A stretch of DNA of 64,000 nucleotides from a virus, in the IMG/VR virus record IMGVR_UViG_3300028024_000003, one strand, 5' to 3'. The notes below the pieces were generated by a model. It made no database searches. It was not told the origin of the DNA and worked only from the letters and a program-made list of their open reading frames with translations. The translations under genes and the position numbers were made by a program. Positions within the stretch are counted from its first letter, which is position 1. Each line of letters opens with the position of its first letter. Shown here one piece after another: positions 4,592 to 60,166 of the stretch.

Positions 4592-5614
4592 TTAGACACT
4601 CTTGAGCAGGTCCGGATTGCTCTTGAGCAGCTTGAGCACTTTCGGGTCGAGTCGCTTGAGCGCGTCGACCGCGGACGCCTGTGCGGTGGCTTCGGCCTTC
4701 TCGCGCAGTGCGACCTTTTCCGCCTCGATGGCCTTGTTGCGTGCCACGAGACCCTTCACCAGGTCGTTGACGATGCGCTGGGCGACTGCGTCCGGCGTAT
4801 CGTCGGGGCCGACCACGACCGGCGTCGCTGCCTGCTTGAGCAAGTTGGCCAGGCTCGGCTGCGATTCCGTGCTCAGAAACGACGTGCCTGCGAGCGCCGC
4901 GATGTCGGGTTGGCGCAGCAGCGCATCTGCGTTCATTACCACCTGGGTCACGAACATGCCTTCAGCCCTCACCACTGGTGCGCGGGTACGCACAGCGGTC
5001 GACGCCTTGCGGCGGCGCGGTGCCGGCCCCGCGCCTGCCATGTAGGTAGGACACAGCTTGAGCAGCGTCGTCTCCAGCTTTTCGCGCCCTTGCTGGCTGC
5101 CGTTCACGCGGGCGAGGCTCGTGTTTTCAATCGTGGCCGCCCCGATGTCCAGCCCGAGATGCATGAGCGGCGACAGCCAGTTCGTGTTTCGCACAGCACT
5201 GGTGAACGCGTGGAGGACGAGCGCGCGCTGGGTCTGGTCGAGTTTCATTTTCTGCGTGCTTTCGCGCGTCACGGCTTCTGCCGCGTTGAGCACATCGCGC
5301 ACGTCAGACGTGCGGGCCTTCTTCGCTGTCGAGTAGATGCGATGCGGCGAATCCGGAGTCAGCAGCGCCTTGACGTTGAGCAACTGCACCATCGAGTCTC
5401 GCAGTGCAGCGTCGAGCTCGGCGATGACCGCCGGCGCGCGAACTCCCTGCTCCGTTTCGCCAGCAAGCACCGCGAGCACGACCTGCTCATCGAGGCCGGA
5501 GCGCAGCTTGGCCAGGCGCTTGCCAAACGGCTTTGAGGAGTTGCCCAAGGGCGTGAGCAGCTTGATAAGCTGGCCGACCCGGATGGCGGTGTCGAGTGTT
5601 TCTTTTTTCATCAT
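4592..5614 (-). CDS. Hypothetical helical protein (340 aa)
   Basis: Long ORF with typical codon usage and RBS, co-oriented with neighbours. Confidence 0.75.
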   Translation of the reverse strand: MMKKETLDTAIRVGQLIKLLTPLGNSSKPFGKRLAKLRSGLDEQVVLAVLAGETEQGVRAPAVIAELDAALRDSMVQLLNVKALLTPDSPHRIYSTAKKARTSDVRDVLNAAEAVTRESTQKMKLDQTQRALVLHAFTSAVRNTNWLSPLMHLGLDIGAATIENTSLARVNGSQQGREKLETTLLKLCPTYMAGAGPAPRRRKASTAVRTRAPVVRAEGMFVTQVVMNADALLRQPDIAALAGTSFLSTESQPSLANLLKQAATPVVVGPDDTPDAVAQRIVNDLVKGLVARNKAIEAEKVALREKAEATAQASAVDALKRLDPKVLKLLKSNPDLLKSV

Positions 5615-5650
5615 TGTTCCTTCGATACATCCGCAGCCGTCGTTGGCCGC

Positions 5651-5875
5651 TTATCGGGCTGCCAGCACCTTGTTGGCGCTGAAGCACCGTTGTCCGTATG
5701 CTGTGACCGCGTACCGGCGGTCTTCCTTGCGCTCCAGCATGCCCGCCGTCGTCATGCGCTCGGCAAGCCTGAACTCACTGGCGACAAACCGGTACCGCGG
5801 GGTCTGCCTGATGACGCTAATAATCGCCCAATAGCTGGGCGGCAAAGGCCGGTCCTGTTGCTTGCTCTGGCGCAT
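5651..5875 (-). CDS. Small hypothetical protein
   Basis: GGAG RBS; fills the gap between nrtR and the 340-aa ORF. Confidence 0.55.
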   Translation of the reverse strand: MRQSKQQDRPLPPSYWAIISVIRQTPRYRFVASEFRLAERMTTAGMLERKEDRRYAVTAYGQRCFSANKVLAAR

Positions 5876-5902
5876 TTCAAATCTCCTACGCAGGCGCGCG
5901 GC

Positions 5903-6577
5903 TCAGTAAAGCTCGCGGGCGAAGTAGGCAATGTCCTGCTTGAGCCGGAAGGCTGACGCGGGTCGACCGCCGCTGAACAGCGTACTGTCCAGCTCATCCA
6001 GCACATTTTCCTTCATGATTTTCGTGCGGAAGTTCGCCGCGTTACACGCCTTCTGGCGAACGGCTTCATAGACCAGCCGCAGGTCGTTCAACGGAAATTC
6101 TTCCGGCAGGAAGTGCGCGACAATCGTCGAATATGCTGCCTTGTTGCGCAGACGCTCGACCGCCATCATGGTGAGCTTCCGGTGGTCCAGCGCCATGTCC
6201 GCGGGCAGGTGCGCACCGTCATCCTCGACGTCAAAGAGTTTCATGCCCCGACTCTCCACCAGCTCCGCCAGAACCTCGGGCGAATTCAGCGCGAGATGCA
6301 CAACGGTGGCCGACCAGCGGCGCGGGTCTCGCGTCGCACCGCCTTCCGTCGCAACCTGCTCGATGTAGCGAGGCTCGAAGTCGAGCTTGGTACGAAGCGT
6401 GCGCAACGCGGCCGCGGTGATGTCGGCATCCTCGTTGGTGTGGATTTGACCGCCCACCAGACACCATTTGCCTGCATCGGGCTCTTTCTCGCGCGGATAC
6501 AGCGCCACCTGAAGGCGGCCGTCAATCATCGTCATCAAGACGATGTCAACAAACAAATCTGGGCGTTCGTATTGCAT
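5903..6577 (-). CDS. nrtR: NrtR-family NUDIX-wHTH regulator of NAD metabolism
   Basis: VDIVLMT...WCLVGG degenerate NUDIX fold; C-terminal ANFRTKI...GGRPASAF wHTH; next to NAD genes. Confidence 0.85.
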   Translation of the reverse strand: MQYERPDLFVDIVLMTMIDGRLQVALYPREKEPDAGKWCLVGGQIHTNEDADITAAALRTLRTKLDFEPRYIEQVATEGGATRDPRRWSATVVHLALNSPEVLAELVESRGMKLFDVEDDGAHLPADMALDHRKLTMMAVERLRNKAAYSTIVAHFLPEEFPLNDLRLVYEAVRQKACNAANFRTKIMKENVLDELDSTLFSGGRPASAFRLKQDIAYFARELY

Positions 6578-6589
6578 GGAAACCTCTCG

Positions 6590-6632
6590 TACACTGTTTC
6601 AACAGTATATCAAACTTCGTCGTAATTTGCAA
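6590..6632 (-). promoter_or_regulatory. Sigma70 promoter of nrtR with overlapping palindrome
   Basis: TTGCAA-17 nt-TATACT; inverted repeat ACTGTT-TC-AACAGT at 6593-6606 overlaps the -10. Confidence 0.7.
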
Positions 6633-6665
6633 TTAACAACTGAGATGGCAAGTGCAGCTCTGCGC

Positions 6666-6692
6666 AAAGAAAACCCCCGCTCAGCGGGGGTT
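6666..6692 (-). terminator. Rho-independent terminator after NAMPT-like gene
   Basis: cccccgc/gcggggg stem plus U-tract on - strand. Confidence 0.8.
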
Positions 6693-6712
6693 CCATTGGT
6701 GCAGCTTGACGG

Positions 6713-8434
6713 TTAGACCGCGAATTCGATGGTGCCCGGTTCCGGGCAAACCCACGACGACAGGAGACGTTCGCGGATGACGGCCCACTTTTCATCGACG
6801 AGCAGCTGGCTGTTGCGGAACACCGGCTTCAGTTCGCCCTGGTCGAACTGTTCGCGCGATTGACGGTCGTAGAGCACGAAGTCATCGCCTTCCTTCTCGA
6901 CGCGCAGCAGACCGACCGCCGACTTCTTGGTGCCATCGTCCGTTGCCGGGTCCTTGTAGATTTCGACAACTTCGTCGCCGACTTCTGCGTATTGCGCCTT
7001 CATCGCCCAGGCGAACGAGTCGCGGGTGATGCACTGGTACGTAAATGAACCGATACCGAACACGACGTTGCCCGATGCGAAACCCTTTGCAGCCAGGCGG
7101 GACAGGATGGCGATGGCGCGGTCCAGCGTAATCGAGTCGCCGTAGATGAGGCCAATGTGCGGGTCGAGCAGCTTGTGGCCCGTGCTCGTAACCGAGCCGC
7201 CGAACGAATCCCACAGGCATGCGACCGAGCCCTTGCGCTCAGCTTCCGTGATGCGCGTGCCGTCCAGCGCCGTGTAGCGGCCGTCGCTGAACATCGGCTG
7301 GCCTTCGGCGTCGCACACCAGTTCCTTGTCGAAGTAACCCGTCAGAATCTTGATGGGGTCACCGCTGTCCGGGCGGGCCACGACCTTCGCGTTGCCCAGC
7401 TCATCCGGCTTGCGGGACATGATGACGTCCTTCAGGCTCGGCAGGATGTCCGTGATGACATTCCAGTAGTCGAAGCTGTCCGCGACGATGCTGATGATGC
7501 CGGACGGCACCAGCTCGGCGATAAGTTCGCGAATGACTTCGAATTCAGCCATCTTGCGCAGTGCCTTCTCGTCCTTGCCAGCGTTGGCCGGGTCGCGGCG
7601 CAGACGTTGCGTGACGAGCAGGATGCGAAGTGTCATGACGCTGTGTTCGGTCGCCGGAACCGAGCCGCCGATGAGTTCTTCGTCCGAGTTCGCGCCGTAG
7701 TAGTCTTCGACGTAGTCGATGGCCGGAATGGTATCCGTACCCCAGAACGAGAGCAGGTGGCCGCTGCCGCTACGCGCCGCGTCGTGCACGCCACTCATGC
7801 CGCGCATCGAGAAGTCGTGACCTTGCCAGTTGACGAAGTCAATAGGCGAACCCGTCAGCTTCGCGAAGTACGTGAGCACCTTGCGGAATTCGAACGCGAT
7901 GGTCGCAACCGTCGACGGCTTCCACATTTCCGTGCTGAAGAGCGTCTCGAAGTAGGTCGACACCCACGCGAATGCATCATTCGTGTTGATAAAGACGACC
8001 GGCGGAACTTTGATATTCACGCGGCTGCCCTCAGGCACCGAGCGGATTTCGAGCGGCAGGTAGCCCAGGTCGTGCAGCTTTTCAACCTGCGTCATGGCGA
8101 CCTTGCCTGCGCCTAGCGCCGAGTCCACGCGACGCTTGAACTTGCGCACCGCCTGCTCCTTCGACATCGCGAAAAAGTCGGCGTTGAACTTGTCAATGAG
8201 AAATTCCTTGATGAAGCCCTTCAGGCCGTGCCACACGACCTTCTTGTCGTAGAACGGCGAGTGGCGCACCGGCGCATACTTGTCGCCGCGCGGCGTGAAC
8301 GTAGCAGCGATGGTCTTCGTTTCCGCCGGATACATGCCCGGATGGCCCGTCTTGTAGAAGTCAGCGAGGTTCATCGGAATCGTGCCGTTCTTGAGGACGG
8401 CGGGGATAGCGGCATTTGCGTACGGTGCGTTCAT
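6713..8434 (-). CDS. nadV: Nicotinamide phosphoribosyltransferase family (NadV, or phage Namat-like)
   Basis: DFYKTGH, HDFSMRG, SVPATEHS, RPDSGDP, LIYGDSIT, FGIGS, KDPATDDGTKKS motifs. Confidence 0.92.
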   Translation of the reverse strand: MNAPYANAAIPAVLKNGTIPMNLADFYKTGHPGMYPAETKTIAATFTPRGDKYAPVRHSPFYDKKVVWHGLKGFIKEFLIDKFNADFFAMSKEQAVRKFKRRVDSALGAGKVAMTQVEKLHDLGYLPLEIRSVPEGSRVNIKVPPVVFINTNDAFAWVSTYFETLFSTEMWKPSTVATIAFEFRKVLTYFAKLTGSPIDFVNWQGHDFSMRGMSGVHDAARSGSGHLLSFWGTDTIPAIDYVEDYYGANSDEELIGGSVPATEHSVMTLRILLVTQRLRRDPANAGKDEKALRKMAEFEVIRELIAELVPSGIISIVADSFDYWNVITDILPSLKDVIMSRKPDELGNAKVVARPDSGDPIKILTGYFDKELVCDAEGQPMFSDGRYTALDGTRITEAERKGSVACLWDSFGGSVTSTGHKLLDPHIGLIYGDSITLDRAIAILSRLAAKGFASGNVVFGIGSFTYQCITRDSFAWAMKAQYAEVGDEVVEIYKDPATDDGTKKSAVGLLRVEKEGDDFVLYDRQSREQFDQGELKPVFRNSQLLVDEKWAVIRERLLSSWVCPEPGTIEFAV

Positions 8435-8474
8435 GGTCTACTCTTCTTGAAGTGGTTATTGGCGGCGTTTGGTG

Positions 8475-8523
8475 TTAGTCGCGATTTACGACAAAGTATA
8501 GCACTAAATCGCGCGATGACCAA
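8475..8523 (-). promoter_or_regulatory. Promoter of NAMPT-like gene with shared 15-bp motif
   Basis: TTGGTC-17 nt-TATACT followed by GTAAATCGCGACTAA (8475-8489, - strand). Confidence 0.6.
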
Positions 8524-8531
8524 GCGTTTTC

Positions 8532-9410
8532 TTAAGCAGCGGTGTCGGTGGCCTCGCTAAGCTCGAAAACACCCAGTTCAGCGGCCAGTTCTGCGTTGCG
8601 CACGTTCGCCGAGAACACGCCAGCGTAGGCGGCCTTGAGCGGCTCCAGGCCTTTCGTGAACAGGCCGTGCGTGACATAGAGGTACAGCGGCTGGTCCGTC
8701 TTTTCGCGCAGCACGCGGGCCAGTTCGATGAAGGTGCCGCCGCCGTCGCAGATGTCGTCGACCACGAGCAGCGGCTTCGCTGGCACATCGCCCTGCACTT
8801 GGGCGCCCGAGAGCTTGCCCGTCACCGGGTCGCGCTTCTTGTCGGCAAACACCACTTCCGTGCCGAACATCTTGGCGAGCGCCGAGACGCGCTTGCGGGC
8901 GCCTGCGTCGGGCGCGACGAACGCGCATTCGCGCAGCAGGCTTGCCCCGCCCTTCATGCCGAACGCAGCAAACATCAGGTCGCGCGTCGGACGGATGCGC
9001 ACATTCTTGATGAGCGCGGGCGTAACGTCGCTGTGCGGGTCCCAGATTTCGACCTGGTCGAAGGCCAGGGCATTGATGAGGTTGCAGAAGACCGCAATCG
9101 AGAGCGGCTCGCCGTCCACGGCAACACGGTCCTGGCGGGCGTACGGCACGTAGGGCATCACGAGCTTCAGGATGCTGCCTGCGGGAATCACCCGGCGCAG
9201 TGCGTCCGTGACGAGCATCAGGTCCATGATGTCAGCAGGTGTGTAGACGCGCGCTTCAATGCTCCAGAAAGACACCGGGCCTGCGAGCAGTATGTCGTCG
9301 ACCGGCAGACGTGCGTGGCGCTCGCCACCCGGGAACGACATGAACTGGATGTCGGGGAAGCTGGTCATGTCGCCTTCGGCGGTGAACGAGTGCAGTGCAA
9401 TGTGGTTCAT
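8532..9410 (-). CDS. prs: Ribose-phosphate pyrophosphokinase family (Prs, or phage Adps-like)
   Basis: FPGGE, MPYVPYARQDR, DPHS, VAPDAGA, VVDDICDGGGTF, LYVTHG motifs; likely ATG at 9410. Confidence 0.9.
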   Translation of the reverse strand: MNHIALHSFTAEGDMTSFPDIQFMSFPGGERHARLPVDDILLAGPVSFWSIEARVYTPADIMDLMLVTDALRRVIPAGSILKLVMPYVPYARQDRVAVDGEPLSIAVFCNLINALAFDQVEIWDPHSDVTPALIKNVRIRPTRDLMFAAFGMKGGASLLRECAFVAPDAGARKRVSALAKMFGTEVVFADKKRDPVTGKLSGAQVQGDVPAKPLLVVDDICDGGGTFIELARVLREKTDQPLYLYVTHGLFTKGLEPLKAAYAGVFSANVRNAELAAELGVFELSEATDTAA

Positions 9411-9585
9411 GGTGATGGTTTTTGTTGGTTGATTGTTAATCGTTAATCGCATTTTACATCTAAGTATAGTCGCAGGTCAAGGGGATGATGCGAACACTTT
9501 CGCCGGGTGCCCTGGGCTCGCGCCTGGCGAAACCTATACTGCGTGAGTACCCTGTAAAATTCGTGGACAAAACTGGAGAATTTCA

Positions 9586-9852
9586 ATGGCTGTGGTCATC
9601 TATAGCAAAGAAGACGGCGTGTATCTGGGTTCCTTTCTTGGGCTGGGCTTCTGGACGAACCTCGACACGGCCGGTCAGTCCTCGGCGGTAACCTTCCCTT
9701 CCGAGCAGGCCGCCCGCGACTATATGGCGACCTGGGATACGCCTCCGCCGGCCGATGTGCAGGTGGTGGACGTTGTGCCTGATGACGGCCCGAACGGCGC
9801 GTCGGTAGCCGCCTGTGTTAAAGCGGGCCTTCCGGCCTGGGTAGCTAACTGA
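9586..9852 (+). CDS. Hypothetical protein
   Basis: GGAG RBS, CTATACT upstream, terminator downstream. Confidence 0.65.
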   Translation: MAVVIYSKEDGVYLGSFLGLGFWTNLDTAGQSSAVTFPSEQAARDYMATWDTPPPADVQVVDVVPDDGPNGASVAACVKAGLPAWVAN

Positions 9853-9872
9853 GCAGGCCTTGCATCATCCCT

Positions 9873-9937
9873 CAAGCCGCAGATTCGTCTGCGGCTTTTT
9901 TCATGGACGAAAAAAAGCCCGGCACTATGGCCGGGCT
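9873..9937. terminator. Pair of convergent terminators
   Basis: agccgcagattcgtctgcggct-T6 on + strand; A6-gcccggcactatggccgggct on - strand. Confidence 0.75.
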
Positions 9938-9995
9938 CAAAATAGCCAGAGGGACGCCCTGGCTGCCGATAGAGGGGTGTTGAGAGAGCCGCCGC

Positions 9996-11294
9996 TTAAC
10001 GGCAGACGTGCAGGTGAGCCGGTGCGTTGTCGGCGTTCAGCTGCGCCTTGAAGTCCATCACCAGCGCCAATTCCGGCTTGGCGAGGCTTTCCATGAGCGA
10101 CCAGCCGCCGTCAGCCACGAAGTCAGCATGCGGAACGGCGAGAATCACCGCGTCGGCCGGATTCGCCTGTGCATCTTCCAGCGAAACCATCGTGAGGCCC
10201 AGCTCGTGCTCGACTTCTGCCTGGTCAGCCAGCGGGTCGACGACTTGCACCTTCACGCCGTACTTGCCGAGCTCTTCGCAGATGTCAGCGACCTTCGAAT
10301 TGCGCACGTCCGGCACATTCTCCTTGAACGTCGCGCCGAGAACGGTCACGACCGTATCGCGGTTCACGCCAACCGTCTTGACCATCTTCTTCACCAGCTG
10401 GTCGACGATGAAGGCCGGCATCGAGTCGTTCGTGGCACGCGAGGCCATGATGAGCTTGGCGTTGAAGCCTTCTGCTGCGGCCTTGTGGCTCAGGTAGTAC
10501 GGGTCCACCGAAATGCAGTGACCGCCGACCAGACCCGGCTGGAACTTCAGGAAGTTCCATTTGGTGCCCGCCGCTTCCAGCACGTCGTGCGTGTCGACGC
10601 CGCAGTGCGTGAAAACCTGATAGACCTCGTTCATCAGCGCGATGTTGACGTCACGCTGCACGTTTTCGAGGACTTTCGCGCTTTCCGCGACCTTGATGGC
10701 GGGAGCACGGTGGATGTTCGTAATCGAACCGTACAGGGCCGCCAGGGTTTCGAGCACTTCAGGCCGGTCGCCTGAGACAATCTTGGTCGTGTTCGTCAGG
10801 CGGTGCACCTGGTCACCCGGGTTGATACGTTCCGGCGAGTAGCCGATGGCAAACTCTTCCGGATAGCTGTAGCCCGAAACCTTTTGCAGCACGGGCAGGC
10901 ATTCTTCTTCCGTCGCGCCGGGATAGACCGTGCTTTCGTAGACGACGATGGCGCCCTTCTTCATCACCTGGGCCACCGTACGGGTAGCGGCCAGCACGCA
11001 GCCCATGTCGGGCACGTTTGCTTCGCTTACCGGCGTCGGCACGGTCACGATGAAAATGTCAGCTTCGCGCAGGTTCTCGACGTCCGCCGTCAGCATCAGG
11101 CGCTTGTCGGCGAGCAGGCCGCTTAGCTCGTCGCTCTCCATTTCACGCGTGCGGTCGAAGCCCTGGCTCAGTTCGGTGACGCGCTCGACGTTGATGTCGA
11201 AACCGATAACGTTATTGTGCTTGGCCAGCTCCAGCGCGAGCGGTGCGCCGACATAACCGAGGCCGATGATTGCGATTTGCGAAGTCTTATTCAT
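9996..11294 (-). CDS. UDP-glucose/UDP-HexNAc 6-dehydrogenase (TviB/WbpO-like)
   Basis: GLGYVG Rossmann motif, VPTP, YESTVYPG, SPERINPG, AKVLEN, GGHCI catalytic Cys, LGATFKENV. Confidence 0.92.
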   Translation of the reverse strand: MNKTSQIAIIGLGYVGAPLALELAKHNNVIGFDINVERVTELSQGFDRTREMESDELSGLLADKRLMLTADVENLREADIFIVTVPTPVSEANVPDMGCVLAATRTVAQVMKKGAIVVYESTVYPGATEEECLPVLQKVSGYSYPEEFAIGYSPERINPGDQVHRLTNTTKIVSGDRPEVLETLAALYGSITNIHRAPAIKVAESAKVLENVQRDVNIALMNEVYQVFTHCGVDTHDVLEAAGTKWNFLKFQPGLVGGHCISVDPYYLSHKAAAEGFNAKLIMASRATNDSMPAFIVDQLVKKMVKTVGVNRDTVVTVLGATFKENVPDVRNSKVADICEELGKYGVKVQVVDPLADQAEVEHELGLTMVSLEDAQANPADAVILAVPHADFVADGGWSLMESLAKPELALVMDFKAQLNADNAPAHLHVCR

Positions 11295-11510
11295 TTTCAA
11301 ACGTCCCGTATTAATTTGACCAGTTCAGACTGGCATTAGCGTGGTTAACAGCACTGCTACCGGCAAGTAGAACTATCTCAGTGCATGGTTCCCATTATAG
11401 CACAGAATGCAGTCAACGGGAACGAAAAGATGCCCTAATTACTATGGTATATCATTAATTGCGATTTACATCTTTTGCTTGGCTGCCAGCCTTTGCCGAC
11501 CGGCATAGCC

Positions 11511-12584
11511 TCAGTTGCGAGGGTCTGCGTTACGTGCAATCCAGCTGCGCAGGTAGTCCAGTCGAGCTTCCGAACCCGTGATTTGAGCCTGGGTGCCCAT
11601 CTGTTCGAGCGTCGCCTGGCGCATCGCGCGCTGTGCGTCGTCGGACTGGATGCCCTTCAACCGCTCGACCGTGTTGTCGGCCAGTGCCTTGCGTTCGTAG
11701 AGGCCTTGCAGAATGCCTTCTTCGGCCGTAATCAGGCCATGCGCCGTTTCCTTGGCGCGCAGAAACTGCTGCACCGGGCCATCGCGTTGCTCGCTCTGGT
11801 ACTTCTCGGCCAGTCCGCCAACCGACTTGGCTGCGCGATTCGCCGCGCCAGCCCCGAAGCTGTAGCTGACCGTCAGGCCGATGAAGGGCTTGGTAGCGCC
11901 GCCTGAGCGCGGGTCCGTCTGTGCGCCGGCCGCAATAGATACGTCCCATGCCGATTGCGCCGCCAGCTCGCTCGTTTCGCTTGCTACGGCCGCGTGCGCC
12001 GCGATGGCTTCGTGCACCAGACCGCCCAGCGGAACGTCCGCCTCGGGGAGTTGGTTGGCGATACGGGCGCGAGCTTGTTGCAGCGCCGTAAGTAGACTGC
12101 GCACCACGTCGCGCGCGTCGTAGGCTGCCTTCACGTCGGAGAGCGACGAAGTATGGACGCCCAGCATCGCTTCTTCCTTTTTCACGTTCGCATTGGCAAT
12201 GTCGAGCGCCTGACGCAGCACCGGCTCCATTGCTTCGAAGGCGTGCAGGTTGCCGCGCTGTTCGACGTTCTGAGCCTGCTCTGCGAGCTTGCGGTCGGCG
12301 CGATAGGCGTCGCACGTAGCATCCGCCAGTTCGCCCGTCGTGCGGGCTTGCAGCTGCTTCGACAGGGACTTGCTGAAGCCTACCGTGATGGTGCTGCTGT
12401 TACCCGTTGCCGGGTTACCAGTCGTGGCGAACATCTGCGCCGAACCGAGCAGTTGCTTCTGCACTTCAGCCTGAGCCTGCGTCAGCTGGCAGAACGAGTC
12501 GGATTCATCGGCAAAACTGGAGGTCGAGATGGCCGCGAGTGCCACGGCGACGGCGAGCGTCTTGTACTTGGGATGCATGTTCAC
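11511..12584 (-). CDS. Secreted protein, probable TolC/outer-membrane-factor-like
   Basis: Sec signal peptide ending SSFA; long amphipathic helices with two beta-strand segments (ITVGFSKSL; WDVSIAAG...FIGLTVSYSF); fold assignment is inference. Confidence 0.55.
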   Translation of the reverse strand: MNMHPKYKTLAVAVALAAISTSSFADESDSFCQLTQAQAEVQKQLLGSAQMFATTGNPATGNSSTITVGFSKSLSKQLQARTTGELADATCDAYRADRKLAEQAQNVEQRGNLHAFEAMEPVLRQALDIANANVKKEEAMLGVHTSSLSDVKAAYDARDVVRSLLTALQQARARIANQLPEADVPLGGLVHEAIAAHAAVASETSELAAQSAWDVSIAAGAQTDPRSGGATKPFIGLTVSYSFGAGAANRAAKSVGGLAEKYQSEQRDGPVQQFLRAKETAHGLITAEEGILQGLYERKALADNTVERLKGIQSDDAQRAMRQATLEQMGTQAQITGSEARLDYLRSWIARNADPRN

Positions 12585-12759
12585 TACCTCTATCGGCTTT
12601 TAATGTTATATACGAATAACAACTAATGCAGTCATTATATCAAAAAACAGCTACCGGAGCAATGTGTGTTTGATGTTTTGTGATATACGCCTGAGGAACC
12701 GCCAGGCAAGACTGGAGAAACAAACGGCCGGAGCATTGCGCCCCGGCCGGGTTGGAACA

Positions 12760-13872
12760 TCAGAGGATGTAGAAGGGGCTGTGGCCGACGAACAGAACCT
12801 GGTCCTTGGCTGCCTTGTTGTCGTCGAGGTCCAGTTCGACCAGGACGCCGCGCAGTTGCGTGCTGAACAGCGGATGCTGAGCGTGTTCTTCGTCCTTGGT
12901 AATCGACTTCACCCGACCGACCTTGAAGCACAGCACGATTTCAGCCTTGCACGAGTACACCGGAGCGCCGACGTGCGCAGAATCTTCGTTGTCGTACGGC
13001 ACGAAAGCGAAACGACGCGTGTCCTTGTCGCCATACGCGGCCATGTAGTACGGGCTTGCCTTGAGGCCGTTGAGCATCGTTTCGAGTTCCGCGGCTTCCT
13101 TGGCCTTGACGCTTACATCGGCATTCAGTTGCACCAGCTTGAGGTTGGTTTCGCTCAGGCTCTGCTTGAGCATGCTGACCTGCGCCAGGCTTTGCATCGC
13201 TTCCGGCGAGCTATTGCCGCCACCGAGCGACGCCACGCCACGCGTCAGCTGCGAAATCTGGTTGTCAATCGTCGCTGCCGCCACCTTGCTGTCCGCGAGA
13301 GCCGATTCAGCCGTCACCAGCCCTGCCCGTGCCTGCGTCGCCGACACGTTCGTCATGAGGCCTGCCTTGAGCGCCTGGTCGATGTTGGCCGACACCTGAC
13401 GGTTCGCTGCCACGACCTGCGCTGCTCTTGCATTGATAGCCTTGCGCTCGGCAACCAGCTTTTGCAACTGACCGTTGAAGGCTGCGTTGGCGTCCTTCTC
13501 GTCGCCCAGCGAGTGCTCGTAGCGGCCGATGATGCCCGTGAGCCAGTCACGTTGCGTTTGCAGCAGGTTACGCGCCTGTTCTGCGCTGTCGAGCTCGCCC
13601 TTCATCTGGTCATAGTTCTGCTTGGCCGTAAACACCTGGGCGGCAAGCTGCGCAACGTGCGGGTCCGACTTGCTCAGGATGACCGGCGCGACCCAGCTCG
13701 AATTGAGCACGAACGTCAGCATGGTAATGCCGTAACCCGACGCGCACAGCAGGATTGCTGTCAGCAGGAAAACGGCCAGGTAGCGGTAGCTCTTCAGCAG
13801 GGCGCCCTGGTATTTCGACATCTGGAAGCGGGCGAAGAAGTTGCCGCTCGTTGCATTTGCGGGAGTGCTCAT
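12760..13872 (-). CDS. Membrane-fusion/periplasmic adaptor-like protein
   Basis: One N-terminal TM helix, long coiled coil, beta-rich C-terminus (FAFVPY...VGAPVY...GVLVELDL). Confidence 0.65.
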   Translation of the reverse strand: MSTPANATSGNFFARFQMSKYQGALLKSYRYLAVFLLTAILLCASGYGITMLTFVLNSSWVAPVILSKSDPHVAQLAAQVFTAKQNYDQMKGELDSAEQARNLLQTQRDWLTGIIGRYEHSLGDEKDANAAFNGQLQKLVAERKAINARAAQVVAANRQVSANIDQALKAGLMTNVSATQARAGLVTAESALADSKVAAATIDNQISQLTRGVASLGGGNSSPEAMQSLAQVSMLKQSLSETNLKLVQLNADVSVKAKEAAELETMLNGLKASPYYMAAYGDKDTRRFAFVPYDNEDSAHVGAPVYSCKAEIVLCFKVGRVKSITKDEEHAQHPLFSTQLRGVLVELDLDDNKAAKDQVLFVGHSPFYIL

Positions 13873-13987
13873 GGATTTTCTCGGCTAATAAGTGTTATGG
13901 CTAAACAGGTGAATCTCTAACTGATGATTAGCATTATAGCACAGAATGTATGTTAAGTGCAAATAACGACTAAGTTAAGTTGCAGTT

Positions 13988-15250
13988 TTAGTTCGCGGGA
14001 GTCGCATCCTGCGGTTGCTCGGCGGTGGCAACCTTTTCTCGCGTACCCCACGCGTCCTGGTCGAACGAGAACAGCGCCATGAAGTGCAGCATCAGCGAAA
14101 TGAGGCCCCATGCCTGGAACAGTCCCACGAGCAGCACCGAGTTGATTTTCTTCGAGCCCGGCATCAGACGCGGGGCATAGATGTTGTAGGCCATCGCCGC
14201 GATAATCGAGCTCAGTGCGCCGTACACCACGCCGTAGCAGGCACCCTTCCAGAACACACCCGGGCCGTAGACTTTCACGCAACTCAGCGCGAAGAAAGTC
14301 ACGAGAATGGCGAGCAGATACGGCATCAGCCAGGTCAGCGTGCGATTCACGCCGACGATGCGGAAGTTCTTGCGCAGCGTAACGAGTGTCCAGACCGCAT
14401 CACGCAGCGCCGAGCGCGACCAGCGAAGCTGCTGCTTGAACAGCACGTCGAACTTGTTGGGAACCGACGTCCAGCAGATAGCGTGTGGGTTGATGAGGGT
14501 ACGCCAGCCGCGCAGCATGACCGTGTGCGTCATGTAGCGGTCCTCGCCCGCGCGAACCTTCACGCCCAGGAAGTTCAGATTCTTGATGTCGTCCTCGATG
14601 TCGCGGTAGACCGACGCGCGGATGGAGAACAGGCAACCGCTGATGCAGCTGACGCCACCTTGGAGAATCTGCGTGAGCTTGCCCAGCTGGAAGCTGCGGA
14701 AGTACGTAATGGCCTGCGCCATCGTGTAGACGTTGTCGTTCACGTTGGTAATGCCGACCGAGCCGCCGACCGCGCCGACACGCGAGTCTCCGCCGAAGCA
14801 CGCCACGAGTTCCTTGATGACGTCCTTGTGAAAGATGCAGTCGCTGTCGATGACGATGAAAATCTCGCCCGTCGCGTGTTTTGAGGCGTTCAGCACGGTC
14901 AGGTGCTTGCCCGAGTTCACCGGGTTGCGGCCGACCCGCACGAGGCCCGGATTCGCGTCAGCAATCTGCTGCACGTACATCATCGAGTCGTCCTTGCTGA
15001 AGTCGTCGTAAGCGATGATTTCCAGCTTGTCGCGCGGCCAGTCCGCATTGATGATGCTGTTCAGCGTGTTCAGGATGTTTTCGCCCTCGTTGTAGACGGG
15101 CACGAGAACGCTGACCTTGGGCTGGTAGGTGTAATCGCGTCGCGGCTCCGCGGCCTTCGTGAGCAGACGCAACAGGAAGTTGACCGCCGTGCAGATGATG
15201 AGCAGCACCGGCAGCAGTTCGAAGATTTCCAGCATGACGTGGAAAAACAT
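13988..15250 (-). CDS. Processive GT2 synthase, NodC/hyaluronan-synthase-like
   Basis: VLVPVYNE, DDFSKD, GK, IDSD, CISG, GEDRYMT, QQLRWSR (QxxRW); N-terminal TM and about three C-terminal TMs. Confidence 0.9.
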   Translation of the reverse strand: MFFHVMLEIFELLPVLLIICTAVNFLLRLLTKAAEPRRDYTYQPKVSVLVPVYNEGENILNTLNSIINADWPRDKLEIIAYDDFSKDDSMMYVQQIADANPGLVRVGRNPVNSGKHLTVLNASKHATGEIFIVIDSDCIFHKDVIKELVACFGGDSRVGAVGGSVGITNVNDNVYTMAQAITYFRSFQLGKLTQILQGGVSCISGCLFSIRASVYRDIEDDIKNLNFLGVKVRAGEDRYMTHTVMLRGWRTLINPHAICWTSVPNKFDVLFKQQLRWSRSALRDAVWTLVTLRKNFRIVGVNRTLTWLMPYLLAILVTFFALSCVKVYGPGVFWKGACYGVVYGALSSIIAAMAYNIYAPRLMPGSKKINSVLLVGLFQAWGLISLMLHFMALFSFDQDAWGTREKVATAEQPQDATPAN

Positions 15251-15486
15251 GGCATTTCCTCAGAGGCAGAGATTGACTAACTAACTGCCATTATACCACG
15301 TTATGCGTAAATTACAACTAACACTAAAGCGGATTTGTTAACTATTTGCAGGGCTTTTCAACGCGGCCCGCTGACTCAAGACGCGACAAGCAAGCCTCCC
15401 GTCTCCTTCCCTGGCTGCCAGGTCTCGGGGCACACTTGCGCACGGCTCTTTTCTCGCTATACTGCTTATTGTCGAATCCGAGCAAA

Positions 15487-59695: not shown

Positions 59696-60166
59696 TCAAG
59701 CGGACGCTGTTGCTGCGCTCGCGAGTACAAACGTGTCTGCCTCGACGACGAATGCGTCCACGAACGATTCGATTTCTTCTTTCGACGCGGTTTCCGGAAT
59801 AGTCGTAAGCTTCGACTGGTCACCGTGGCCGTCTTCCTGCGTGTACGAACAGCTCATGACGAAATGCGCAGTCTTCGAGTCGTAGCGAATACTCGCCAGT
59901 GCCTCAGTGAATCCCGCCGCACCTTCATAGTCCTTCATCACGACGTTGTCGAGCACGCTCTCTGCCCGCCAACCATATTGGCGGCAAAGGCGACTCGTAG
60001 CAATATGCCACACGTCCTCTTCGGTTCGGAGCTCGGCGCTCCTCACAACCAGTAGCTGGTACGGCGCCTTACCGGCGATTTCTATGGCCGCCGTGCGGCT
60101 CTGCGCCTGAATGAAAACGGCTACGGCTCCTTCAGGTGTCGAGCCACATACTTTCCAGTTCTGCAT
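59696..60166 (-). CDS. Hypothetical acidic protein
   Basis: GGAG RBS, ATG 60166; CTATACG at 60209-60215. Confidence 0.7.
   Translation of the reverse strand: MQNWKVCGSTPEGAVAVFIQAQSRTAAIEIAGKAPYQLLVVRSAELRTEEDVWHIATSRLCRQYGWRAESVLDNVVMKDYEGAAGFTEALASIRYDSKTAHFVMSCSYTQEDGHGDQSKLTTIPETASKEEIESFVDAFVVEADTFVLASAATASA

What the first reader, a model, noticed from the sequence alone, without database searches (positions are those of the whole stretch)
6617..15321. One 15-bp motif shared by the promoters of the NAD genes and the polysaccharide genes
Seen in sequence, 15-mer cores: GTAATTTGCAATTAA (6622, nrtR), GTAAATCGCGACTAA (8475-8489, - strand, nadV), GTAAAATGCGATTAA (9443-9457, - strand, prs), GTAAATCGCAATTAA (11455-11469, - strand, dehydrogenase), ACGAATAACAACTAA (12612, weak, TolC-like gene), GCAAATAACGACTAA (13959, adaptor gene), GTAAATTACAACTAA (15307, GT2 gene). 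Consensus GTAAATNRCRAYTAA, one copy per intergenic region across seven consecutive co-oriented genes. It occurs in both orientations and mostly overlaps the -35 or +1 region, as repressor operators do. Inference: NAD reconstitution and surface-polymer synthesis are co-regulated, possibly by NrtR, which would make ADP-ribose a danger signal for both. Caveat: in some copies the motif contains the -35 hexamer, and these regions are AT-rich.
Basis: partly seen in the sequence, partly recalled or inferred. Interest (0 to 1): 0.75.

Follow-up and report, generated by a model that had tools for sequence, protein, structure and literature searches.

The report
NrtR operators gate NAD and polysaccharide genes
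The repeated 15-letter motif is real and belongs to a 21-bp palindromic binding site of the ADP-ribose-sensing repressor NrtR, which on this giant Burkholderia-type mobile element sits before its usual NAD-rebuilding genes and, unusually, before a surface-polysaccharide gene set.

Summary
They are the right-hand two thirds of a 21-bp palindrome, TTAGTYG-N7-CRACTAA. The "two orientations" come from that symmetry.

A symmetric PWM scores the sites at 24-30 bits. The best score elsewhere in the 64 kb is 11.8 bits, despite some 35 other AT-rich promoter-like regions. A PWM trained only on the three NAD promoters finds the four polysaccharide sites at 21-27 bits.

Orthologous 114-720 kb elements (NrtR 54-83% identical) keep the box before prs, nadV and nrtR. 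The four elements that carry the polysaccharide module also keep it before the adaptor-like gene and the GT2 gene.

The same box occurs twice in the nrtR<>prs-nadV spacer of plasmid pM7012 and nowhere else in its 582 kb. It is about 318-fold enriched just upstream of nrtR homologues in 80 chromosomal loci. It fits the published NrtR operator (21-bp palindrome, TG-N7-CA core). NrtR is therefore very probably the binding protein.

The boxes overlap predicted -35, -10 or +1 positions, as repressor operators do. Binding, ADP-ribose release and the "danger signal" idea are untested.

This is a known regulator type with a new output. The scan has already noted NrtR operators on a huge phage elsewhere.

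The parts
5903..6577 (-). nrtR: Nudix-like domain plus NrtR winged-helix regulator (224 aa)
   Evidence: Pfam NrtR_WHD, AraR_C and NUDIX. NCBIfam 'ADPR responsive transcriptional repressor', 132 bits, below the equivalog cutoff. Homologue of S. oneidensis NrtR 3GZ5/3GZ6, E 6e-27.
6616..6643 (.). Composite operator before nrtR: two 21-bp boxes 7 bp apart (6616-6636 and 6623-6643), covering the predicted -35 TTGCAA (6632-6627)
   Evidence: PWM 25.7 and 26.0 bits. Predicted promoter TTGCAA-N17-TATACT. Conserved in 5 orthologues.
6713..8434 (-). nadV/Namat-like nicotinamide phosphoribosyltransferase-family gene (573 aa)
   Evidence: Pfam NAPRTase. NCBIfam PRK09198, 511 bits. 44-49% identical to phage NadV/Namat-type proteins, including SPbetaL1.
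8475..8495 (.). NrtR box before nadV, starting at the last base of the -10 TATACT (8500-8495) and covering the +1 region
   Evidence: 26.0 bits. 1 mismatch to the pM7012-derived pattern. Invariant block in 6 loci. Promoter.
8532..9410 (-). prs/Adps-like ribose-phosphate diphosphokinase-family gene (292 aa; start set by the conserved ATGAACCAC)
   Evidence: Pfam and NCBIfam Prs family. Start conserved in 6 loci. About 44% identical to phage Prs-like genes that lie next to nadV.
9436..9463 (.). Composite NrtR operator before prs (boxes 9443-9463 and 9436-9456), overlapping the -10-like TATACT (9468-9463) and TAAAAT (9456-9451)
   Evidence: 27.1 and 24.2 bits. Nearly invariant across 6 loci. Promoter.
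9996..11294 (-). UDP-sugar 6-dehydrogenase, TviB-like (432 aa)
   Evidence: Pfam UDPG_MGDP_dh N, central and C domains. NCBIfam TviB 421 bits, below the 592 cutoff; NDP-sugar dehydrogenase subfamily 380 bits, above its cutoff.
11455..11475 (.). NrtR box upstream of the dehydrogenase gene, about 56-76 nt upstream of its TGcTATAAT -10 (11399-11394). This site is specific to this lineage.
   Evidence: 24.3 bits. No counterpart of 12 bits or more in orthologues.
11511..12578 (-).
   Evidence: No Pfam or NCBIfam hit. 26% identical to the neighbour gene in the PGU19 module.
12606..12626 (.). NrtR box before that gene, 8-28 nt downstream of TGaTATAAT (-10 at 12639-12634), in the +1 region
   Evidence: 25.8 bits. 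L001 has an 18.2-bit box at the same place. The other orthologues fuse this gene into an operon with the adaptor-like gene.
12760..13872 (-).
   Evidence: Only weak SMC-type coiled-coil hits. 26% identical homologue in Paraburkholderia sp. PGU19 p2.
13953..13973 (.). NrtR box before the adaptor-like gene, covering the -35 region of TGcTATAAT (-10 at 13938-13933)
   Evidence: 28.1 bits. 18-29 bits in all four orthologues that carry the module. The box and the -10 are the conserved blocks of the intergenic alignment.
13988..15250 (-). GT2 processive-synthase-like glycosyltransferase (NodC/PgaC/chitin-synthase-like; 420 aa)
   Evidence: Pfam Glyco_tranf_2_3, Glycos_transf_2 and Chitin_synth_2. 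NCBIfam NodC 125 bits and PgaC 121 bits, both below cutoff.
15301..15321 (.). NrtR box before the GT2 gene, containing the predicted -35 TTGTAA (15317-15312) of TTGTAA-N16-TATAAT
   Evidence: 30.4 bits, the best in the window. Promoter. 16-19-bit boxes at the same position, about 50 nt before the start, in four orthologues.
6660..6704 (-). Terminator-like GC hairpin with a T run between nadV and the nrtR promoter. Together with hairpins at 9938-9915 and 12749-12725 it suggests largely monocistronic units.
   Evidence: Inverted repeat I8; terminator scan.

Best explanation
The motif is the operator of the NrtR repressor encoded at the end of the gene string. It is a 21-bp palindrome, TTAGTYG-N7-CRACTAA, with an A/T-rich spacer that itself resembles a half-site. 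At nrtR, prs and the secreted-protein gene a second strong box lies 7 bp away, which gives 28-bp composites; the off-register scores at the other promoters are weaker. Each of seven separately promoted genes carries one operator. It overlaps the -35 region at nrtR, the adaptor-like gene and GT2. It overlaps the -10/+1 region at nadV, prs and the secreted helical protein gene. It lies further upstream at the dehydrogenase gene. By analogy with characterised NrtR proteins, the NrtR dimer occludes these promoters. ADP-ribose, the product of NAD+ cleavage, binds the catalytically degenerate Nudix domain and releases the repressor. Rising ADP-ribose would then switch on three things together: the Prs/NadV pair (probably a NARP1-type Adps/Namat pair that uses ADP-ribose as substrate), nrtR itself, and a synthase-type GlcNAc/uronic-acid polysaccharide module. 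Shown here: the sites, their specificity, their conservation, and their association with nrtR genes across replicons. Inferred: binding, the repressive sign, the ADP-ribose response, and the chemistry and role of the polymer.
For: Specificity. The sites score 24-30 bits and the best score elsewhere in the 64 kb is 11.8. Leave-one-out and NAD-only training recover every site. Family architecture. NrtR boxes are 21-bp palindromes with a TG-N7-CA core that overlap promoters, and ADP-ribose abolishes binding in vitro (PMC2330246). Canonical targets. Boxes lie before nrtR, nadV and prs here and in six orthologous loci. Independent replicons. pM7012 has two boxes in its nrtR<>prs-nadV spacer, and they are the only matches with 1 mismatch or fewer in 582 kb; its NrtR is 38% identical. 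In 80 chromosomal nrtR loci, hits of 16 bits or more number 38 in the 20.7 kb just upstream of nrtR and 5 in the other 868 kb, about 318-fold denser. Polysaccharide sites. They are conserved before the adaptor-like gene (18-29 bits) and GT2 (16-19 bits) in all four orthologues that carry the module, as footprints in otherwise diverged spacers. A homologous module on a Paraburkholderia chromid without nrtR has no box (best 10.1 bits). The regulator is a homologue of soNrtR.
Against: There is no binding or expression data, and no RNA run holds this DNA. The dehydrogenase box is not conserved and lies outside the core promoter. The GT2 boxes in orthologues are weaker (16-19 bits). Promoter positions are consensus predictions, and the element may use an unusual promoter class: invariant TTGAC lies only 6-7 nt before CTATACT at prs. 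NCBIfam scores this NrtR below the equivalog cutoff, so its effector could differ from ADP-ribose. The rest of the replicon could not be scanned.
Confidence: 0.8

Rival explanations
1. The boxes before nrtR, nadV and prs are working NrtR operators, but those before the polysaccharide genes are inert by-products of reusing one promoter cassette when the gene string was assembled.
For: The element is built from repeated terminator-promoter-gene cassettes. The dehydrogenase and adaptor-gene promoters share a 25-nt block around the -10 (D20). The dehydrogenase box is absent in orthologues, and the box before the secreted-protein gene survives only in the closest one.
Against: The boxes before the adaptor-like gene and GT2 persist at fixed positions in elements whose NrtR is only 58-66% identical, while the flanking spacer has diverged. 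They score as high as the NAD-gene boxes (28.1 and 30.4 bits).
Confidence: 0.1
2. A regulator other than NrtR binds the motif, for example the conserved 74-aa ORF just downstream of nrtR, an H-NS-like protein, or a host factor.
For: A 74-aa ORF (5651-5875, minus strand) follows nrtR in five orthologous elements. The boxes are AT-rich.
Against: The 74-aa ORF is absent from L019, which keeps all boxes, and from pM7012 and the 80 chromosomal loci that carry the same box next to nrtR. The only gene common to all box-bearing loci is nrtR. The box is a specific 21-bp palindrome, not generic AT-rich DNA, and about 35 other AT-rich regions in the window lack it. The box does not match the IHF or LexA consensus as I recall them; this was a comparison by eye, not a tool result.
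Confidence: 0.06
3. The motif is a promoter element (-35/UP-like) of an element-specific transcription machinery, or a chance similarity among AT-rich spacers.
For: In three promoters the box contains the best -35 candidate.
Against: The position relative to the -10 varies from about -70 to +20. The box is absent from all other promoter-like regions in the window. 0 of 100 shuffles reach the observed count. The same box occurs in ordinary bacterial chromosomes next to nrtR.
Confidence: 0.03

Closest known systems
Shewanella oneidensis NrtR (SO1979) with tandem operators before prs-nadV (Rodionov et al. 2008, PMC2330246; structures 3GZ5/3GZ6)
   Same: The regulator has a Nudix domain plus a winged helix. 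The operator is a 21-bp palindrome with a TG-N7-CA-type core that overlaps the promoter. The targets are prs and nadV. More than one box occurs per promoter. In that system ADP-ribose abolishes DNA binding in vitro.
   Different: Here there are seven separately promoted targets, four of them polysaccharide genes. The setting is a giant extrachromosomal or phage-like element. The published operator sequence itself could not be retrieved for a letter-by-letter comparison.
nrtR<>prs-nadV locus of Burkholderia sp. M701 plasmid pM7012 (NC_022995.1)
   Same: It carries the same box, ATAGTCG-N7-CGACTAA and TTAGTCG-N7-CAACTAT, and a Prs/NadV pair next to a NUDIX regulator 38% identical to this NrtR.
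   Different: It is a minimal, NAD-only regulon with a divergent gene arrangement and no polysaccharide genes. Those two boxes are the only near-exact copies (1 mismatch or fewer) in 582 kb.
NrtR-family regulators that control non-NAD pathways (Bacteroides AraR, PMC4666351; the Streptomyces nrtR-draG group, PMC2330246)
   Same: They show that the family has been recruited to other outputs.
   Different: Those are paralogues with changed effectors or motifs that left the NAD regulon. Here one regulator and one box type cover both NAD genes and a biosynthetic polysaccharide module.
Phage NARP1 (Adps + Namat; Osterman et al., bioRxiv 10.1101/2024.02.11.579819)
   Same: A Prs-like gene and a NadV-like gene lie together. 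The nearest phage relatives are such pairs, and the SPbetaL1 Namat record is among the NadV hits. ADP-ribose is the pathway substrate.
   Different: The described NARP1 operons have no dedicated regulator. ADP-ribose substrate specificity was not tested here. The authors only speculate on a link to ADP-ribose-dependent transcription.

Membership tests
NrtR regulator/operator system | Regulator with an N-terminal Nudix-like domain fused to the NrtR-type C-terminal winged helix | tested here: met
   Pfam PF21906, PF19368 and PF00293. Best NCBIfam hit is the ADPR-responsive repressor model, below its cutoff. 3GZ5 E 6e-27 over residues 8-219.
NrtR regulator/operator system | Operator is a palindrome of about 21 bp with a conserved TG-N7-CA (GT-N7-AC) core | tested here: met
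   Sites read TTAGTYG-N7-CRACTAA, and the 14 half-sites are listed. The family definition is from PMC2330246.
NrtR regulator/operator system | Operators lie before NAD salvage genes and/or nrtR itself | tested here: met
   Boxes lie before nrtR, nadV and prs in the window and in six orthologous loci.
NrtR regulator/operator system | The box co-occurs with nrtR genes in independent genomes | tested here: met
   pM7012: 2 boxes, both in the nrtR spacer, in 582 kb. 80 chromosomal loci: about 318-fold enrichment upstream of nrtR, 25 loci with a hit of 16 bits or more there.
NrtR regulator/operator system | Operator overlaps the core promoter or lies between promoter and start (repressor geometry) | tested here: inconclusive
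   Met for six of seven boxes against predicted -35/-10 elements and conserved -10 blocks. No transcription start data exist.
NrtR regulator/operator system | Specific NrtR-DNA binding that ADP-ribose relieves | not testable with these tools
   Needs EMSA or footprinting with and without ADP-ribose.
NARP1 (Adps + Namat) | A Prs-like enzyme of the phage Adps clade next to a NadV-like Namat | tested here: inconclusive
   The genes are neighbours, though separately promoted. The best phage relatives are adjacent Prs/NadV pairs at about 44-49% identity. No clade tree or specificity residues were examined.
Synthase-dependent polysaccharide system | A processive GT2 synthase, a precursor enzyme and envelope export partners | tested here: inconclusive
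   GT2 hits NodC, PgaC and Chitin_synth_2, and the dehydrogenase hits TviB, all below the equivalog cutoffs. The two putative export proteins match no family. The four-gene module recurs on a Paraburkholderia chromid.

The most novel reading that the evidence does not exclude
ADP-ribose released when host NAD+-cleaving immune effectors fire is the inducer of a counter-defence regulon carried by a family of giant (114-720 kb contigs) Burkholderiaceae phage-like or plasmid-like elements. One NrtR repressor would simultaneously unleash NARP1-type rebuilding of NAD+ from ADP-ribose and the synthesis and export of a GlcNAc/uronic-acid surface polymer. The polymer might remodel the cell surface against superinfection or shield the cell. 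This would be the first case of an immune by-product sensed by a mobile element to switch on surface remodelling.
Probability: 0.2. Interest if true: 0.8.

Novelty: new variant of a known kind. Interest (0 to 1): 0.5.

Why it matters
NrtR regulons in Proteobacteria are small and confined to NAD metabolism; a survey of 28 genomes lists 96 target genes, about 3.4 per genome (PMC5343134). Here one NrtR box type also controls a conserved polysaccharide synthase and export module, gene by gene, on a family of very large mobile elements. If it works as inferred, the level of ADP-ribose, the product of NAD+ cleavage and the substrate of NARP1, sets both NAD+ rebuilding and surface-polymer production. 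That links the NAD+-depletion arms race to cell-surface change. It also gives a simple, testable switch: seven promoters, one repressor, one small-molecule inducer. A related element sits as a 619-kb replicon in the complete NCBI genome assembly of Paraburkholderia sp. A3RO-2L, which may offer a host to work in.

Tried and rejected
Records behind L001 and L005 are also not held.

Megablast of the 10-kb stretch against phages and plasmids gave only short or distant matches. Scans of viral contigs with NrtR and with GT2 found no relatives.

No RNA holder is listed for this DNA.

The Huang et al. 2009 structure paper and Table S2 of Rodionov 2008 are not held. I therefore could not compare letter by letter with experimentally bound NrtR boxes.

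The strand of each site cannot be assigned.

I considered and dropped four other readings.
- IHF, LexA or H-NS sites: by eye the box does not fit those consensus sequences as I recall them.
- A -35 or UP element: the position varies between promoters.
- The 74-aa ORF after nrtR as the binder: it is absent where boxes persist, and it has no Pfam hit.
- An extra window hit at 59799-59819 (2 mismatches to the half-site pattern): it lies inside an ORF and scores 2.1 bits with the full PWM, so it is treated as chance.

The Atlas look-up of the adaptor-like protein gave only unnamed clusters.
Full report
**What is there**

The stretch 5903-15250 carries seven co-oriented minus-strand genes.
- nrtR: Nudix domain plus NrtR winged helix.
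- A NadV/Namat-like phosphoribosyltransferase.
- A Prs/Adps-like kinase.
- A TviB-like UDP-sugar 6-dehydrogenase.
- Two proteins with no family match: a secreted helical protein and a membrane-anchored coiled-coil protein.
- A NodC/PgaC/chitin-synthase-like GT2.

One small plus-strand ORF (9586-9852) interrupts the string. The rest of the window encodes an NAD-dependent ligase, a class II ribonucleotide reductase, RuvB, RCC1-repeat proteins and many ORFs without a match. It has no near relative among deposited phages or plasmids. The NrtR protein itself is recorded on a contig of 333,603 bp.

**Checking the observation**

All seven 15-mers are at the stated positions.

The repeat finder offered a second register in which all copies lie on one strand (D1). 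Putting the two registers together shows a 21-bp palindrome, TTAGTYG-N7-CRACTAA. The 14 half-sites include TTAGTCG (2), TTAGTTG (2), TTAATCG, TTAATTG and TTTGTCG. The same-strand and mixed-strand alignments carry nearly equal information (21.0 and 19.8 bits). So "both orientations" reflects the dyad symmetry and is not a property of the sites.

The spacer is A/T-rich and resembles a half-site. This produces high scores 7 bp off-register at nrtR, prs and the secreted-protein gene. The operators there are in effect 28-bp composites.

**More than chance, and not generic AT-rich DNA**

A symmetric PWM scores the sites at 24.3-30.4 bits. The best position anywhere else in the 64 kb scores 11.8, although the window holds about 35 other AT-rich promoter-like islands. 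Three tests address circularity.
- Leave-one-out: each omitted site scores 20.3-28.2 bits, against 9.4-12.6 outside the cluster.
- A PWM trained only on the nrtR, nadV and prs boxes finds the four polysaccharide boxes at 20.8-26.7 bits, against 12.3 elsewhere.
- A half-site pattern taken only from plasmid pM7012 hits six places in the window at 2 mismatches or fewer, and five are these promoters.

**Conservation**

NrtR homologues at 54-83% identity lie on contigs of 114-720 kb. These come from soil and rhizosphere metagenomes, from a Burkholderia ubonensis isolate, and from a 619-kb replicon of Paraburkholderia sp. A3RO-2L. Gene order is conserved: GT2, adaptor-like gene, secreted-protein gene, dehydrogenase, prs, nadV, nrtR. 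Lineage-specific insertions occur, for example glmS in the Paraburkholderia replicon. One relative (L018) lacks the polysaccharide module altogether.

Boxes are present as follows.
- Before prs, nadV and nrtR: in every locus.
- Before the adaptor-like gene: in all four module-bearing relatives (18-29 bits).
- About 50 nt before GT2: in all four (16-19 bits).

In alignments of these spacers, the box and the -10 element are the conserved blocks in otherwise diverged sequence. The dehydrogenase box is specific to this lineage. The box before the secreted-protein gene survives only in the closest relative; in the others that gene is fused into an operon with the adaptor-like gene.

**Who binds it**

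Rodionov et al. 2008 describe NrtR operators as 21-bp palindromes with a conserved TG-N7-CA (GT-N7-AC) core. The operators overlap promoters or lie just downstream of them. ADP-ribose abolishes binding in vitro, and Shewanella has tandem sites before prs-nadV (PMC2330246). The box here fits that description. Two independent data sets tie it to nrtR.

First, plasmid pM7012 carries a divergent nrtR<>prs-nadV locus whose NrtR is 38% identical. Its 123-bp spacer holds ATAGTCG-N7-CGACTAA and TTAGTCG-N7-CAACTAT. These are the only matches with 1 mismatch or fewer in the whole 582-kb plasmid. All other matches have 3 mismatches and are fewer than in the reversed-pattern control.

Second, I scanned 80 chromosomal loci with NrtR homologues (35-49% identical; Beta-, Gamma- and Alphaproteobacteria). 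PWM hits of 16 bits or more number 38 in the 20.7 kb just upstream of nrtR and 5 in the remaining 868 kb, a roughly 318-fold difference in density. 25 loci have such a hit upstream of nrtR. On reversed sequence 5 loci score anywhere, against 29 on the real sequence.

The conserved 74-aa ORF downstream of nrtR is not the common factor. It is missing from L019, pM7012 and all 80 chromosomal loci.

A homologous polysaccharide module lies on a Paraburkholderia chromid: adaptor-like gene, secreted-protein gene, dehydrogenase, GH16 and GT2, next to an EAL-domain gene and with no nrtR. It has no box; its best score is 10.1 bits. So the boxes came with placement next to nrtR, not with the module.

**How it probably works**

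Predicted promoters place the boxes in three classes.
- Over the -35 region: nrtR (TTGCAA-N17-TATACT), GT2 (TTGTAA-N16-TATAAT) and the adaptor-like gene (TGcTATAAT).
- Over the -10/+1 region: nadV (the box begins at the last base of TATACT), prs, and the secreted-protein gene.
- About 56-76 nt upstream of the -10: the dehydrogenase gene.

Terminator-like hairpins separate several genes, so most genes appear to be individually gated. This is repressor geometry.

By family analogy, NrtR leaves the DNA when ADP-ribose binds its Nudix domain. By my reading of the sequence, that domain lacks the catalytic REUXEE glutamates. The Prs-like and NadV-like proteins have their nearest phage relatives in adjacent Prs/NadV pairs, and the SPbetaL1 Namat record is among the NadV hits. 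This is the arrangement of NARP1, which rebuilds NAD+ from ADP-ribose and nicotinamide. If so, ADP-ribose is both inducer and substrate.

That the same signal derepresses a GlcNAc/uronic-acid-type polymer pathway follows from the shared operator. The purpose is open: surface remodelling during infection or defence, or matching an NAD+-consuming dehydrogenase step to NAD+ supply.

**What is and is not new**

The regulator, its operator type and its control of prs-nadV are known. I searched the library for NrtR together with polysaccharide, capsule, biofilm or glycosyltransferase terms and found nothing relevant. NARP1 papers mention NrtR only in passing. A survey of proteobacterial NrtR regulons lists 96 target genes in 28 genomes, about 3.4 per genome, all in NAD biosynthesis.

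The new elements are:
- the extension of one NrtR box type to a conserved polysaccharide module;
- the one-operator-per-gene layout;
- the setting on a family of very large elements.

Earlier notes of this scan report NrtR operators on a 536-kb phage and several other NrtR regulon extensions on other DNA. Those are leads that I did not test.

**Verdict**

The NrtR reading is supported by comparative evidence. The functional consequences are untested. I rate it a new variant of a known kind, of moderate interest.

Noticed in passing
window 6590-6609: A second palindrome, TACACTGTTTCAACAGTATA, overlaps the nrtR -10 and +1. The ACTGT...ACAGT arms are kept in 4 of 6 orthologous loci. It could be a 5'-UTR hairpin or a second operator. 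It is not an NrtR box.
   Followed up: partly
window 9463-9480 and alignment A5: At the prs promoter an invariant TTGAC lies only 6-7 nt before an invariant CTATACT in all six loci. This spacing does not fit sigma-70.
   Followed up: no
L100 (NZ_AP023182.1, Paraburkholderia sp. PGU19 p2) 5449-12388: A distant homologue of the polysaccharide module (adaptor-like gene, secreted-protein gene, UDP-sugar dehydrogenase, GH16-like gene, GT2) lies next to an EAL-domain gene on a 1.44-Mb chromid, without nrtR or any NrtR box. This suggests the module is normally under c-di-GMP-type control.
   Followed up: partly
L001, L004/L016, L005/L017, L018, L019: A family of very large contigs (114-720 kb; one is a 619-kb replicon of a complete Paraburkholderia genome) shares this gene string. 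It also shares an M23 peptidase, Phage_phiTE_072 and Phage_P22_Y8K6 domains, adenylosuccinate synthetase, a NYN-CSD protein and a PAPS-reductase-like protein. Whether these are megaphages, phage-plasmids or megaplasmids was not resolved.
   Followed up: no
L017 3592-3612: The Paraburkholderia replicon has an extra 24.9-bit NrtR box about 56 nt before two small ORFs (92 and 102 aa) between ligA and GT2. The window has no counterpart.
   Followed up: no
window 5651-5875 (minus strand): A 74-aa ORF 27 nt downstream of nrtR is conserved in five related elements (48-87% identity) but absent in L019. It has no Pfam hit, and its function is unknown.
   Followed up: partly
L050, L064, L072, L074, L075 (Competibacteraceae chromosomal nrtR loci): The same interleaved arrangement, four 7-mers forming two 21-bp boxes offset by 7 bp, occurs about 130 nt upstream of chromosomal nrtR genes. 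The 28-bp composite operator may therefore be a general feature of this NrtR clade.
   Followed up: no
L005 8018-9853: A glmS (glucosamine-6-phosphate synthase) gene is inserted between nadV and nrtR in the Paraburkholderia replicon. This fits a GlcNAc-based polymer. It has no NrtR box of its own.
   Followed up: no
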